A stretch of 63,979 bases of DNA, the filler included, from Thermoplasmatota archaeon (GTDB lineage: Archaea; Thermoplasmatota; E2; JACPAO01; JAHFTW01): NCBI GenBank assembly GCA_041623215.1. It is 12 parts of 12 records of this genome, joined end to end, with 100 filler letters (N's around TTAATTAATTAA, not from the genome) between each part and the next. Parts side by side here need not be neighbours in the genome. Positions count along the whole stretch, not along the records: positions 22,016 to 27,271 come from JBFJXH010000126.1; positions 27,372 to 32,624 come from JBFJXH010000127.1; 10 more parts are not named here. One strand, given 5' to 3'. Position 1 is the stretch's first letter. Each line of letters begins with the position of its first letter. The position numbers were made by a program. Of this stretch, positions 24,001-30,000 are shown piece after piece.

Positions 24001-27000
24001 CGTCGCAATGGCCGGGTCATGGCTGCCAGCAACGAGTTGCACCAGGTCGCGACGCCACTCCTGTGGCACCACTTTGATGTGTTCGAAGACAAAGCGCTTG
24101 GGCAAGACCACGTGCTCGGTCCCGTCACGTTTCTCGAGGGCATCACACGCCTCGGCGGCGCTACGGATGCGAGTCCAGTCTTCCGGGGTGCGGCACTCCG
24201 CTTCCGTGATGGTGCGAACCGGGATGTCGTTGCTACACAGTGTTTCTCCAGCAAGGAGGCGACAGAAGATTTCCGTCGCTTCGTGGAACCACTTTCCCTT
24301 GAGGAACGGATAGGGAATCGCGCGTTCCAAGTCGTCGCGGGGGACGTAGCCGTGGGCTCGGTTCATGTAGTCGAATCGCCCGGCGCTGAAGCCGACGTGG
24401 ATACGCCGCGCCTCCTGGGCATCGAGCCCGTGTAGCGACGCGAAGAAGGCGATTCGCTCGGCGGCGGCGATGGGGCCTCCGCCCTGTAGGATGTTCATGA
24501 CGGCCGAACCCACCTCGATGTGGTTGGTCCGGCGGAAGATGGCGTGCGCCGATTGCAACATGTCGCAGTTGAGGCCAACTTCCCCCTCCCAATGGGGGAT
24601 GACGGGGTGTTCGTTTTGCTTCTGCACTTCGCTACTCAAGTGGCTCTCGGCCAACCAGGCAACGCCGTAGCCGAGTCGGTCGGCGGCAGCCACTTGTTCG
24701 AGCCAGTTGCTGAACATGGTGGCCTCGTCCGGGGTGTAGCCATCAACGGGCGTTTGGCTGATCGAGAAGAAGACGTCGAAGTCCAACGGGCCTTGGAACG
24801 GGGGCCGGTTGTCAAGCGTTTGGACCGGCAGTTGCCGGCCTACCTACGCCGGACTGGTGCCTTCAATGTCCGTGATGCGCTCGCGGACCTTCCACAGTTC
24901 GGGCCACCGCATAATCTGGATGTCTTGCTCCAGCTGGTGGACGGCGTAACCCTTGAGGCTCTTCACGTCGCGACCAATGATACGCTTGACGACGGCCAGG
25001 TGGACTTCCCGCCATTGGTAGATTTCCTGGTCTAGGTCCGTCATGGCTTCCAGGAGCAGGAACAGGTCGGGGCGGTGGCCTTGCTGCATGTAGATGGATT
25101 CCAAATCTTCGCCTTCGCGTTCGAGAAGCGCCTCCAGCCGTGGCCAGATGAGCGGCGCCTCGGATTGGATGCGGCGGAACCCGGGGGATTCGGCTCCAGA
25201 GCCCGCCCCCAGTTGGCGCCTGACTTCGTGGAAGTCGCGCGGCGTCATGGTGTCAAAGACGGCGAGCGCGGCGCTGTTGGCGTGGATGGCCTTGCGGCAG
25301 CGGCGCAGGAGGCGCACGGCGGTGGCCCAGCGGTCTTCGTCCAGGAGGTCGCCGACGCGGTGCAGCTCGAAGCAGACCATGTTGCACCAGAGTTCCCAAG
25401 CTTGGTGGATGGTTTGGAAGAGCACTTCGTCCGGGTGGGCGCGCTCTTCAGGCTTTTTCTGGAGTGCGAGAAGGTCATCGACGCGCATGTAGCGTTCGTA
25501 GTCGGTGGCGCCTTCACCAGGAAGGACCGGGCCAGTGGCAGGGTCGGCGGCGCCGTGGTGGATTGGGCAGGCTGCTGCTTCGGTCATTGGACAAGTTTGG
25601 GCATTCGTCCCTGCGTTTAGGCATTGGGACGCGTGCTTTGACTCGGCGAATGCGAATCTTAATATCATACCCGATACCAAATGGATTGTATGTCGCTTCA
25701 CGAGGACATTCCAACTTGGGCTTGGTGGCTGATTGGGCTCGCAGTATTCCTCATCATCTGGCTCATCCTCTGGTTGCTCTAGCGCCGGACAAGAAAAGGC
25801 TACGAACAGGGCGCTCCCCTTGCAAGGAGCAGCAGCCAGGGGCTAGCGCCAAATCACCGACAACAGGAAGTCGCCGACGGCCAAGCTAGCGGTCAGGCAC
25901 CGGGCAGGCTGGCGGCGTCACCGCGCCGGTCAAGCCACGATGGTTCGAACGTCCCTCACAAGTTGCTCATGGCGGTTGGAATCGATGCCCAACTGCTCTG
26001 CCAGGCGACCTAACACCGCGTGCTCTCGGTCACTAATGTCCCCGTCCTCCAGGGCTCCCTCCAGGGCCGCGCGGTAGATTCGCGTCGGCTCGTCGTCGCC
26101 AGATGCGGGCGAAACGCGGTGGGCCACGGCGTCGGCCATGCCACGAATGGGCCGCGACGCGTAGGTAATCAAGAGCGCAGCGGCCAAACCAATCCCCTGA
26201 CCAAGCCGCGCCTCAACCGCGTTTTCCAACAATTCGCTAGCCACCACGAACACCGTGGCCGCCAGAGTCGCCAAAGCAGTGTGCCGCACGGCAAATCGAA
26301 TCTTTACATCAATGCCGAACAACTGATGCCGAAGGATTCCGTAGCCAACGAGGAGAGGGTAGAGAATCCAGGTCGCCGGAAACGCCATGAACCACCAAAG
26401 GAAGGTCGGGCTGGTTGGAGGCACGACGCTTAGTGCGACGGTGACGGCAAAGAACGCGACGTCCCGCATACCGAATGCAATCAGGTAAGCTCGGGCTTGT
26501 TGGCGACTCGTCGCCGTCTTGGCGTGACGGAGGGCACTGATGCTAAACGACAGCCCAACCAACCACATGACGCCCCACGCTTGCATCATGGGGAGAAACA
26601 TGGTCCCCGCTAGGACCGTCGTGCCGCCATCGGGATGAGCAACGGTGCCACCAACGTAGGCCTCAGGCCAAATGAACACGGTGGCCGAGCATGCGAGCGT
26701 TACGGCCAGAAACGCGAAACGACGCCCTTGCGGGCGAACCAAGCGTGCAAGCGGCGTCGGCAACGTGGCAAGGAAATTGTAGTAGGTCCAGAGCTTCGGC
26801 CAGACGAACGCGTACATCGTCAGGGTGAGGGCAACGGACGCTCGCGGGTCACGAATGAACCACGTAAGGCCCGCCAATGAAGCCACGACGAACGCTTCGA
26901 TGAATAGCTGCAGGGCTAATCGGCGGTTCTGCGTTGCATCCGGGCGGGCCCAAAAAATGAAAGCGGCCATGGTGCCGCAGACGGCAAGGACCAGGAGGGC

Positions 27001-30000
27001 AGGAATGCCCCACGGCGTCCACACCAACCATTGCATGGCCAAGGCAGGTGGTTACTGGTTTGAAAGCTGCGCCCAGGCATCACGCGGGCCCAGGGCGACC
27101 TAGGCTTGGCGGGGCAAAGAGACCAAGTCCGCCAGTATCGCCGCCGCGGTTTCCGTTGCACCTGCCCCTGCACCCACGTGGGTCACGGGCCCCCCCAGTT
27201 CGCGGTGGAAGCGAACGGCATTGAGGGCGCCGCCAACATCCAGCGTGTCGCCGATGGGAACGAGTCGGGGANNNNNNNNNNNNNNNNNNNNNNNNNNNNN
27301 NNNNNNNNNNNNNNNTTAATTAATTAANNNNNNNNNNNNNNNNNNNNNNNNNNNNNNNNNNNNNNNNNNNNGCACCTAGTCTCGCCGCCCCATGGACTCC
27401 CTGCGGACTCTTCTCACGCTGGCACTCGTCGCCACCGCCCTAGCCGGGTGCATCGACGACGACGCCGACAGCCCCGACGGCGGCGACGCCGACGTTCCTG
27501 CCTGGCAACCCGCCAATGACGCTCACCCCGCCTACGGCTTTGCCACCAGTGCTAGCCTTCCGTACGCTGGCGAAGAAATGAGTGGCATCCCCAGCGACTG
27601 GTACCAAATTGACCCCGCCGCACTGCCGGAGACCATCACAGCCTTCACCCACATCAACAGCGCGCCCGAAGCCACCACCGGAAGTGGCATCGCAACCTTC
27701 GGCCACTACGCCTACGTTGGCGACTGGCAAAGCGACGACTTGTGGATCATCGACATCGCCGACCCGTCCGAGCCCTTCGTGGCCGGCACCGCTAGTGGCC
27801 TGTCCGGGGACATTGACACCATCGCTTACCCCGATGGCCGCCTCGTAATCGTAGTCTCCACTCGTGGCAACGACATGCTCGTCTTCGATGTCACCGACCC
27901 CCAGAACGCCGAGCTCATCGCCACCATCAACACCGAGAATGGCAATCACAACCACCAAACCATTCCCGGCACGCCCATCGTGTACAACAACCCCAGCGAC
28001 GGCCAAGGTGGCGGCAACGAAATCTATGACCTCAGCGACCCGGAAAATCCGGTGCTGGTCCAAGATTGGCAAAACGGCTTCGGCTGCCACGCCGCCAGCT
28101 TCTACATTGATGCCAGCCGCGACATGTACCGTGGCTACTGCGCCGGCGTGGAAGAGTCGCAAATCTGGGACATCACCGACCCCCTGAACCCGACCGTCAT
28201 CACCAGCATCCCGTTCCCGACGCTCGGCATCGAGGGCGGACCCGGCGGTGTGGCGCCAGCCAGCTTCAGCCACCTCGCCATGCCCAACTACGATGGCAGC
28301 ATCCTCATCATCGGTGACGAAACCGGTGGCGGCGCCGCACCTGGCTGCGACCTCTACATCCCCGGCGCACCCGCTGCCACGCACGGCCCAGCCGGCAACC
28401 TGTGGTTCTACGACATCAGCGACGAAACCAACCCCGTCCTGAAGGGCCACATCAGCCCCGGCGCCGAAATGTCCCGTGGCTCCTGCACCGCCCACTTCGG
28501 CGACATCATCGGCGACCGCGACCAACTCATCATGGCCTTCTACACGGCCGGCGTCGTGCTCATTGACTTCAGCAACCCCGACGAGCCTTACATCGTGGAC
28601 CAATTTGCGCCCCGCGACGAAAACCAACCTGCCTGCACCCTGTGTGGCACCTGGGATGCCCAAGAGTACAATGGCTACGTTTTCACCGGCGATGTCAGCC
28701 GTGGCATGGACATCCTAGGCTTCGAGTAAGCCTACCTGCCCGGGTCCATCCGCCTAAATAGTGCCACGGGGCTGGAAGGGTCATGCGACAACTGCTTGTG
28801 GGCCTGGCCCTCGGCATCCTCCTGACCGCCTCCTTCGCCAGCAGTACGCACGACCCGAACGATCCGCAGCCGGTCGTGGCACCGCCCGGCGTGGGCCCCC
28901 AAGACCCGTGGGTAGATGCGCGCGGCGACAGCATGTACGGCGACTTGTACCTGCGCGGCCACACCCTCTGGTTCGACGACGTAGCCCTCCAATTGAATCA
29001 AGATGGCCGCCTGACACTGGACGGCAACCTGATTTGCTTCGTGGGTGAGTCTGCTTGCCTGGGCATCAAAGGCGACCGCGGCCTGGCTGGTCCCCGCGGC
29101 GTACAAGGCGCCATGGGCCCCGTTGGCCCCATGGGCCCCACCGGCCCGCAAGGCCCGCCCGGTGACACCGTCACCGGCAACTGCCCCACCGGCCACTTCG
29201 TCGTCAGCATCCAATCCAGCACCATTAGTTGCGACAGCAGCGCGGGCCTACTCGATGGCATTGACAGCAACCAATTCCTGCGAAGCGACGCCGACGACGC
29301 TACCAGTGGCAGCCTGACGGTCGGCCAAAACCTCCACATCGACGGCGACGTAACCGTCTCACCCAGGGTCCGCCATTACAGCATCAGCCCCGTGGACATC
29401 GTCATGAGCCACGACGGCCAAGACTACGAGCGCACCCAAGAACACCTGCGACAAGGCAGCCCCGGCACCGACGTGACCGGCTTTGCCCCCGTCCACCTAC
29501 CCGACGGCGCCACCGTCACCAACGTACGCTTGTACTTCCAAGACAACGTACCCGACGGCGAAGTCACCGTCACCCTGTACCGGAACCTCTTCTACGGCAC
29601 CAGCAACACCATGGCCACCCTCACCAGTGGCATGACGCAAACCCCCGGTATCAACGACGTCGCAACCAGTGCCATCAACTTCGCCACCATTGACAACGGC
29701 GCCTACGGCTACGCGCTACAAGTGGGGCTCCTTGGCAACGGCGATGGACAGGATCCAACCGACGTCCAGCTCGGCGGCGTCGTGATTGACTACGTCATCA
29801 CCAACCTGTAACTGGACGCCGTGCGCCTGGTCCCAGGCGCTTCGCGCCGATTCGAACGGCGCCGTCACTTCGTGGCACTTGCGTGCCACTCGTTATGGCC
29901 CCGCCCGAATTTGAATCGGAGTCTGTGCGTCCCGAACGCACAAGGATACCAAGCTACCCCACGGGGCCGGGGGTAGCCCCGCGACAAAGGGGCCCTATAT

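What a model noticed while it worked through the whole genome (the two positions that open the first line are those of the whole stretch)
25930..27036. Order-specific expanded family of GPCR-fold 7TM receptors with a TerB-like cytosolic tail and no kinase
The genome holds nine unannotated paralogs (C126, C42, C66, C86, C98, C101, C186, C217, C219) with a highly variable N-terminal seven-helix membrane domain and a conserved C-terminal part of two helices plus a TerB-like domain, with no kinase, cyclase or DNA-binding output. The 7TM part is predicted to have the GPCR fold, so these are likely a diversified repertoire of ligand receptors that signal through a shared partner-binding tail. If true it is an archaeal receptor family that, like eukaryotic GPCRs, separates sensing from catalysis and expands by tandem duplication.
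Evidence so far: Paralog cluster and alignment with invariant F, P, P, Y, DG, E, L, L in the tail. Model of g01578 pLDDT 86. Foldseek: every listed hit is a GPCR, best E 3.6e-4. VIA-align against 48,161 chains: all top 50 are GPCRs or a designed GPCR fold, Z up to 14.6, rmsd 4.2 over 226 residues, model range 5-256. Weak Pfam hits HisKA_7TM (E 1e-5, g01336) and TerB (E 2e-4, g01437). Profile search: 33 of 36 other genomes of the order, 1 to 32 copies, tandem arrays in G026 and G025; 0 of 14 other class genomes.
(Added by a program. Inside this text positions count along the whole contig: they may not be those of the stretch shown here. "Call 12" and the like, gene names such as g00115 and contig names such as C1 are that model's own, and its searches are not shown. 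The text may have been shortened before it was handed on; [...] marks where a part breaks off. The agent that wrote the report below was given it as the finding of a first reader that could run no searches.)

Follow-up and report, generated by a model that had tools for sequence, protein, structure and literature searches.

The report
Kinase-less GPCR-shaped archaeal receptor family
This gene is one of ten related membrane proteins in an uncultured archaeon, with a predicted GPCR-shaped seven-helix bundle and a conserved tail; one relative in the same genome carries a protein kinase beside a predicted phosphothreonine-reading gene regulator, so the kinase-less ones are likely sensors that would pass their signal to a partner not yet identified.

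Summary
The 368-aa ORF is real. Its predicted GPCR-like 7TM fold was reproduced (best VIA Z 16.2, GABA-B), followed by two more helices and a TerB/ENT/Tic110-like three-helix domain. Two framing claims fail. (1) 'No kinase': the genome has a tenth paralog (C10) fused to a Hanks-type Ser/Thr kinase, beside a winged-HTH+FHA regulator. This pairing holds across the order (21 genomes have both, 14 neither, 3 discordant). This scan already reported the pair on other DNA (e1-5614347). (2) 'Order-specific': full-length members are expanded in other classes of the phylum and occur singly in Gammaproteobacteria and Gemmatimonadota (1,486 clusters at E≤1e-30). Only three of the ten local paralogs are the short 7+2-helix type. 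New here: kinase-less tails keep acidic residues that kinase-fused tails lose (D331+E338 in 135/199 vs 1/47; E268 in 153/199 vs 0/47). Six of 10 near-complete genomes have these receptors with no kinase or regulator found. They are therefore not just kinase co-receptors; their output is unknown. A GPCR-like fold in archaeal sensor kinases is already published. No G-alpha was found. Verdict: new variant of a known kind.

The parts
25930..27036 (-). Gene for the 368-aa kinase-less receptor-like membrane protein (7+2 predicted helices plus a cytosolic three-helix domain)
26323..27015 (-). Residues 8-238: seven-helix bundle, predicted GPCR-like fold, N-out/C-in by basic loops; conserved polar residues N37, E47, Y85, R191, D192
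26608..26655 (-). Residues 128-143: predicted beta-hairpin between helices 4 and 5 (second outer loop), highly variable in the family
26113..26313 (-). Residues 242-308: two further predicted membrane helices and an amphipathic helix; F263, E268, G279-x3-G283-x3-A287, P296; better conserved than helices 1-7; model confidence lower here (pLDDT 58-78)
25936..26091 (-). Residues 316-367: three-helix domain related to a TerB half, ENT and Tic110 repeats; acidic D331-G332..E338 motif kept in kinase-less members

Best explanation
The gene encodes a kinase-less member of a large family of multi-helix membrane proteins, likely a receptor whose predicted GPCR-shaped bundle would sense an outside ligand and whose conserved tail would pair up and hand the signal to a separate, unidentified partner. 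SHOWN: the family has two classes that share the tail. Kinase-fused members carry a Hanks-type kinase after the tail and sit beside winged-HTH+FHA genes. Kinase-less members, like this one, end after the tail and keep acidic residues that the fused class loses. INFERRED: (1) the variable outer loops and the polar core of helices 2, 3 and 6 bind different ligands in different paralogs; (2) helices 8-9, with a glycine-zipper pattern, and the half-TerB/ENT domain form a dimer that changes on ligand binding; (3) in the fused class this switches on the kinase, whose phosphothreonines recruit the FHA regulator; (4) in the kinase-less class the acidic tail surface docks a partner in trans, and that partner is not obligately the family's kinase.
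For: Architecture and fold. Sensor-type relatives: members C86, L150, L151, L155, L180 and L260 pass the HisKA_7TM cut-off, and that domain heads histidine kinases in the same phylum. Kinase fusions: of 65 distinct kinase ORFs on fetched stretches (chosen mainly as long kinases), 58 have ≥5 predicted helices, 49 have the tail before the kinase, 52 have an HTH-FHA gene on the stretch and 50 match all three catalytic motifs tested. HTH-FHA vs kinase in 38 genomes: 21 both, 14 neither, 3 discordant; 72 of 95 HTH-FHA genes lie within 6 kb of a kinase. FHA G-R, S and N-G residues are conserved. Variable sensor, conserved tail: entropy 2.3-2.8 bits in helices 1-7, 2.9-3.6 in outer loops, 1.7 in helices 8-9. 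Class-specific tail residues: D331+E338 in 135/199 vs 1/47, E268 in 153/199 vs 0/47, while core Y321 is 186/199 vs 47/47. The tail unit occurs as tandem repeats in other proteins (L032, L034, L152-L154) and matches TerB and Tic110 repeats, which fits a unit that packs against a copy of itself.
Against: No ligand, dimer or partner is shown. No recurrent neighbour of kinase-less genes was found. No soluble carrier of the tail domain was found in G000; in G005, G007 and G014 domain matches equal receptor matches in number. The query and 54 of 55 members of its alignment have no HisKA_7TM hit, and a thin profile comparison with four HisKA_7TM domains was weak (E 0.014, probability 3%). Z values near 13 can arise for helical bundles, and two non-receptor hydrolase-fold proteins score 12.5-13.5. 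The tail profile was built mostly from kinase-less sequences and kin are not independent, so the class contrast is inflated. Structural matches of the tail domain are middling (Z 6-8; Foldseek E 0.4).
Confidence: 0.5

Rival explanations
1. Co-receptor model, as in plant receptor-like proteins and kinases (recalled): the kinase-less paralogs would heterodimerise through the shared tail with the one kinase-fused paralog (C10), funnelling many ligands into one kinase and one HTH-FHA regulator.
For: G000 has 9 kinase-less members, 1 kinase-fused member and 1 FHA gene. Receptor counts correlate with HTH-FHA counts (Spearman 0.61, kin not independent). All 17 strongly hit genomes of other classes also have HTH-FHA. 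Query-type sensors occur on both classes.
Against: 11 of 38 genomes have receptors but neither kinase nor HTH-FHA; 6 of them are ≥90% complete, and no FHA domain at all was found in 4 tested. Bacterial-context loci carry single kinase-less copies with no such neighbour. The tails of the two classes diverge at the conserved acidic positions.
Confidence: 0.2
2. Self-contained ligand-gated channel or transporter: helices 8-9 would oligomerise into a conduit lined by E268, F263/F264 and small residues, gated by the 7TM bundle, so that no partner gene is needed.
For: It would explain persistence without kinases, single-gene occurrence in bacteria and the lack of conserved neighbours. Position 268 is E or Q in 134/150 diverse members and is never E in 47 kinase fusions; helix 9 has a glycine-zipper pattern.
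Against: No channel was among the structural matches of the tail model, whose helices 8-9 were barely aligned. The same helices precede kinases, where a scaffold role suffices. The likeness to glutamate-ring channels is recalled, not tested.
Confidence: 0.15
3. Decayed or decoy receptors: the kinase-less genes are truncated kinase receptors with no output.
For: They lack any catalytic domain and sit in unrelated neighbourhoods.
Against: They far outnumber the fused forms (1 of the top 150 profile hits is kinase-sized). Their tails are more conserved than fused tails. Tail trees put the two classes largely apart (2 changes).
Confidence: 0.06
4. A true GPCR-like system that couples to a G protein or an arrestin.
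For: Fold, predicted topology and an outer-loop hairpin resemble GPCRs. A WD40 gene lies on the same contig.
Against: No G-alpha in 5 genomes. No sequence-level GPCR match (best E 0.83, out of register). The WD40 gene is not next to the orthologue in the sister genome.
Confidence: 0.03

Closest known systems
HisKA_7TM (PF16927) sensor domains of archaeal and bacterial histidine kinases
   Same: N-terminal seven-helix sensor ending in a Y-x-hydrophobic motif. Six family members pass the Pfam cut-off. Listed as an archaeal kinase sensor in PMC5847659 (passages). Archaeal histidine-kinase 7TM domains are reported as GPCR-like in PMC13581589 (passages).
   Different: The query itself has no hit. 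The output is two further helices and a TerB/ENT-like domain, with or without a Ser/Thr kinase, not PAS/HisKA/HATPase.
Eukaryotic GPCRs, best structural matches class C 7TM domains (GABA-B, GPR156, CaSR, mGlu)
   Same: Predicted seven-helix fold (Z 16.2, rmsd 3.6 over 226 residues), predicted N-out topology, expansion with variable outer loops.
   Different: 5-15% identity, no profile match, two extra helices, no G-alpha found, and direct kinase fusions in the family.
PknH-EmbR of Mycobacterium tuberculosis; STK_15650/STK_00829 and ArnA of Sulfolobus
   Same: Hanks kinase plus an FHA-bearing regulator of transcription (PMC8636726 abstract; PMC5007285 passages).
   Different: Here the kinase has a 7-11-helix sensor and the regulator is ArsR-like wHTH+FHA. 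The pair is multiplied up to about 15-fold per genome, and most family members lack the kinase.
TerB, ENT (EMSY) and Tic110 helical repeats
   Same: Profile hits: Tic110 4BM5 E 9e-8, TerB 2OU3 E 0.013, EMSY E 0.018. Structure: ENT Z 8.3, rmsd 2.2 over 56 residues.
   Different: A single unit at the end of a membrane protein. The query is below the TerB cut-off. Metal binding and dimerisation of these folds are recalled, not tested.
Plant receptor-like proteins and receptor-like kinases (recalled analogy)
   Same: One family with kinase-bearing and kinase-less receptors, tandem arrays, variable sensors.
   Different: Unrelated folds; here kinase-less members persist in genomes where no kinase is found.

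Membership tests
GPCR | Seven-helix GPCR fold | tested here: met
   Predicted model only
GPCR | Sequence or profile homology to a GPCR class | tested here: not met
   No Pfam GPCR family for the query; one weak TAS2R hit (E 0.008) among 55 members; PDB profile best E 0.83
GPCR | Heterotrimeric G-alpha available in the genome | tested here: not met
   PF00503 0 of 5 genomes, 88-94% complete; no positive control passed the cut-off
GPCR | Arrestin partner | tested here: inconclusive
   PF00339 0 of 5, but no control genome matched either
GPCR | Ligand-driven nucleotide exchange | not testable with these tools
   Needs biochemistry
HisKA_7TM (PF16927) | Score above the Pfam cut-off, query protein | tested here: not met
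   No hit; weak profile comparison
HisKA_7TM (PF16927) | Score above the cut-off, other members with the same tail | tested here: met
   C86 29.6 bits (26.2, below cut-off); L150, L151, L155, L180; L260
TerB (PF05099) | Two-repeat domain above the cut-off | tested here: not met
   Query 13.6 bits vs 24.4, one repeat only; the two-tail member L034 reaches 25.3
Hanks-type receptor Ser/Thr kinase | Kinase domain in the query | tested here: not met
   Protein ends after the tail
Hanks-type receptor Ser/Thr kinase | Kinase domain with catalytic motifs in family members | tested here: met
   C10 (cut by the contig end after the catalytic and activation segments) and 8 others, PF00069 E 7e-26 to 6e-48; activity untested
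Microbial or animal rhodopsin | Lysine in helix 7 | tested here: not met
   No lysine in residues 212-238 of the query
CREST hydrolases (ACER3, AdipoR) | Conserved zinc-binding histidines (feature recalled) | tested here: not met
   No histidine among nearly invariant columns

The most novel reading that the evidence does not exclude
Several Thermoplasmatota lineages run a eukaryote-like receptor system on a GPCR-shaped sensor, with dozens of paralogs per genome and two outputs from one tail. One is a fused Ser/Thr kinase with its FHA transcription factor. The other is a kinase-free route, in which the tail either docks an unknown effector or itself forms a ligand-gated pore; this route can move into bacteria as a single gene.
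Probability: 0.35. Interest if true: 0.85.

Novelty: new variant of a known kind. Interest (0 to 1): 0.62.

Why it matters
A GPCR-like fold in prokaryotic sensors is now known, but what such domains did before G proteins is open. This family offers a test bed: the same sensor and tail occur with and without a kinase, the kinase has a genomically fixed FHA regulator, and small single-gene bacterial members should be easy to express. The residues that separate the two classes (E268, D331, E338) give direct mutational handles on the unknown kinase-free output.

Tried and rejected
No RNA run holding the locus was listed. The homotypic-adaptor idea (tail binds soluble proteins with the same domain) came from other Thermoplasmatota lineages, where the domain is repeated in soluble proteins and follows single-pass kinases; it found no support in this order (three weak short hits in G017 and one in G019 were not examined). 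Repeated independent kinase fusion: FastTree gave 4 changes, but IQ-TREE gave 2 for tails and 3 for query-type sensors, and AU tests did not reject one clade (p 0.18 on 71 of 179 rows, p 0.32 on 54 of 76 rows); not claimed. Canonical EF-hand: loop positions 1 and 3 are D/N in 9 and 0 of 199; rejected, although one Atlas cluster lists EF-hand families at 10%. A search for longer fused homologues (717-2045 aa) returned none, which is weak evidence. Conserved neighbours of kinase-less genes: none in 14 of 20 stretches where a receptor was called; 6 gave no call. Tryptophan-ligand link: the TDO neighbour is shared only with the sister genome, not with the 48%-identical homologue on L134. Defence role: only a partial PADLOC match of the tail domain (PDC-S48, E 4e-6). 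NCBIfam gave nothing for the query. The sigma-70 promoter scan does not suit archaea. No channel fold was listed for helices 8-9, which does not exclude one. The second Atlas query did not complete. Literature searches listed no paper on this family; the library lacks most subscription journals.
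Full report
1. Observation. The window is a string of short contigs; the gene lies on C126 (window 22016-27271), 235 bases from its end. The invariant tail residues are as stated; the one member lacking P296, D331, G332 and E338 is C10. Only C126, C42 and C101 have the short N-terminal part (about 230 residues). The others have 254-302 residues, and an alignment of kinase members shows about 65 extra residues between helices 6 and 7 in long types, so 'seven helices' is shown only for the short type.

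2. Fold. An AlphaFold2 model from 55 sequences (pLDDT 88) has seven helices (8-238), a hairpin after helix 4, two more long helices (242-308, lower confidence) and three short helices (316-367). Foldseek lists only GPCRs, best E 4.9e-4. VIA-align gives Z 16.2 to the GABA-B 7TM; 46 of 50 rows are GPCRs, two are designed GPCR folds and two are ACER3 and AdipoR2. A 150-sequence profile finds no GPCR by sequence. The fold match is real but not special to this family: PMC13581589 (passages; supplements not seen) reports GPCR-like 7TM domains in archaeal histidine kinases, and PMC13734099 (passages) reports GPCR clusters in Asgard archaea. Six members with this tail pass the HisKA_7TM cut-off, while the query and 54 of 55 close members do not hit it. 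The tail's last domain matches Tic110 repeats, TerB and ENT by profile and, with middling scores, by structure.

3. The family has a kinase class. C10 carries PF00069 after the tail (E 7e-26) and runs off its contig. Directly upstream on the other strand is a winged-HTH+FHA gene (C10:24119-24784), the only FHA match in the genome. In 38 genomes of the order PF00069 is found in 23 and HTH-FHA in 22: 21 both, 14 neither, 3 discordant. Copy numbers track (Spearman 0.94, kin not independent), and 72 of 95 HTH-FHA genes lie within 6 kb of a kinase; 21 have no kinase match on their contig. Of 65 distinct kinase ORFs that I fetched, chosen mainly for length out of 118 matches plus a few from other classes, 58 have five or more predicted helices and 49 have the tail before the kinase. 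I found this pairing; the scan's index then showed it had been reported on another genome (e1-5614347), which also names PknH/EmbR.

4. Range. The tail profile hits 35 of 38 genomes of the order (280 matches). In an even sample of 301 genomes of the phylum, 126 match, but in the three genomes with weak hits that I examined these were the last domain alone. Seventeen genomes of other classes match at E≤1e-40, several with arrays, and all 17 also have HTH-FHA. Record titles of related loci name Thermoplasmatota, other archaeal labels and Gemmatimonadota. Metagenome contigs place single kinase-less copies among bacterial genes such as SmpB, Fur, HemY, HslV and BTAD proteins; two are deposited as Gammaproteobacteria (KPK60249.1, HKJ16066.1). 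In the Gemmatimonadota order sampled, 2 of 81 genomes have it. The profile finds 1,486 clusters at E≤1e-30. The gammaproteobacterial-context sequences form one branch among archaeal ones; the direction of transfer is not established without a root.

5. What sets the kinase-less class apart. Eleven genomes have receptors but neither kinase nor HTH-FHA, six of them at least 90% complete. In 199 kinase-less and 47 kinase-fused tails, D331+E338 are kept in 135 vs 1 and E268 in 153 vs 0, while the hydrophobic core is kept in both. The profile is biased to kinase-less sequences, but an independent set of 150 diverse members shows the same residues (D331 133, E338 137, E/Q268 134), a G279-x3-G283-x3-A287 pattern in helix 9, and lower entropy in helices 8-9 than in the sensor. 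No recurrent neighbour and no soluble carrier of the domain were found in this order. In other lineages the domain is repeated in soluble proteins and follows single-pass kinases (apart from L152, their labels are recalled from motifs).

6. Mechanism. Shown: shared architecture, kinase fusions, the FHA pairing and class-specific conservation. Inferred: ligand binding by the variable bundle, tail-mediated dimerisation, kinase activation and FHA recruitment in the fused class, and a separate partner for the kinase-less class (0.5). Rivals are a co-receptor role for the kinase paralog (0.2; contradicted by kinase-free genomes and bacteria), a self-contained channel (0.15; untested), decoys (0.06) and true G-protein coupling (0.03; no G-alpha). 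Trees do not decide between one and several origins of the fusion.

7. Novelty. Six literature searches listed no description of the family. Papers seen: PMC13581589, PMC13734099, PMC5847659, PMC5007285 and PMC8394001 as passages; PMC8636726 as abstract and outline. The parts are known (7TM sensor, Hanks kinase, FHA regulator, TerB/ENT-like unit), and the kinase pair was noted earlier by this scan. The new points are the link between the kinase-less majority and that system, and the evidence that the kinase-less class has its own conserved output. New variant of a known kind; interest 0.62.

Noticed in passing
G000 contig C10:24119-26601 (L041:6120-8602), outside the window: Divergent pair: winged-HTH+FHA regulator and the kinase-fused paralog; the kinase is cut by the contig end.
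   Followed up: yes
G000 contig C219:2-1588 (L049): The ORF switches after the tail's second short helix to a linalool dehydratase/isomerase-like sequence (PF18566) on a 1.6-kb contig; likely an assembly chimera.
   Followed up: partly
G000 contig C32:234-1403: Divergent multi-helix protein with the tail's last domain (E 0.005) but no clear helices 8-9 motif; possible eleventh member.
   Followed up: partly
G000 contig C140:52-4659: Two soluble Ser/Thr kinase-like genes follow two genes that look like TldD/PmbA peptidases (labels recalled); possibly a peptide-modification cluster.
   Followed up: no
window 21964-25701 (-): Downstream of the receptor on the same strand: tryptophan 2,3-dioxygenase, luciferase-like monooxygenase, WD40 protein and asparaginase II-like genes. 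Receptor-TDO adjacency is kept in the sister genome only.
   Followed up: partly
L203, L212, L215, L219, L229: Kinases with one to three predicted helices and long N-terminal parts; four show a degenerate copy of the same three-helix unit just before the kinase, and all sit beside HTH-FHA genes.
   Followed up: partly
L152, L153, L154, L159, L163, L166, L167, L173, L174: In other Thermoplasmatota lineages the three-helix unit occurs in 1-3 copies in winged-helix, DnaJ-like, KaiC-like and DUF835-like proteins and after single-pass kinases (labels mostly recalled): a mobile signalling module.
   Followed up: partly
L032:2005-3819, L034:2116-3951: Members with the two-helix-plus-domain tail duplicated in tandem.
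   Followed up: no
L020, L026: Members with a roughly 200-residue beta-rich-looking extracellular part before the helical bundle.
   Followed up: no
L262:926-2245, L265: HisKA_7TM proteins of other lineages ending in what look like a longin-type and a DUF835-type domain (recalled), i.e. other non-catalytic outputs on the same sensor.
   Followed up: no
G330 (genome holding L134): 51 matches to the tail domain in one 2.8-Mb genome, the largest expansion seen.
   Followed up: no
window 25930-27036, residues 37-47: Conserved N37 and E47 are ten residues apart on helix 2, like N2.40 and D2.50 of class A GPCRs (recalled); the register was not checked structurally.
   Followed up: no
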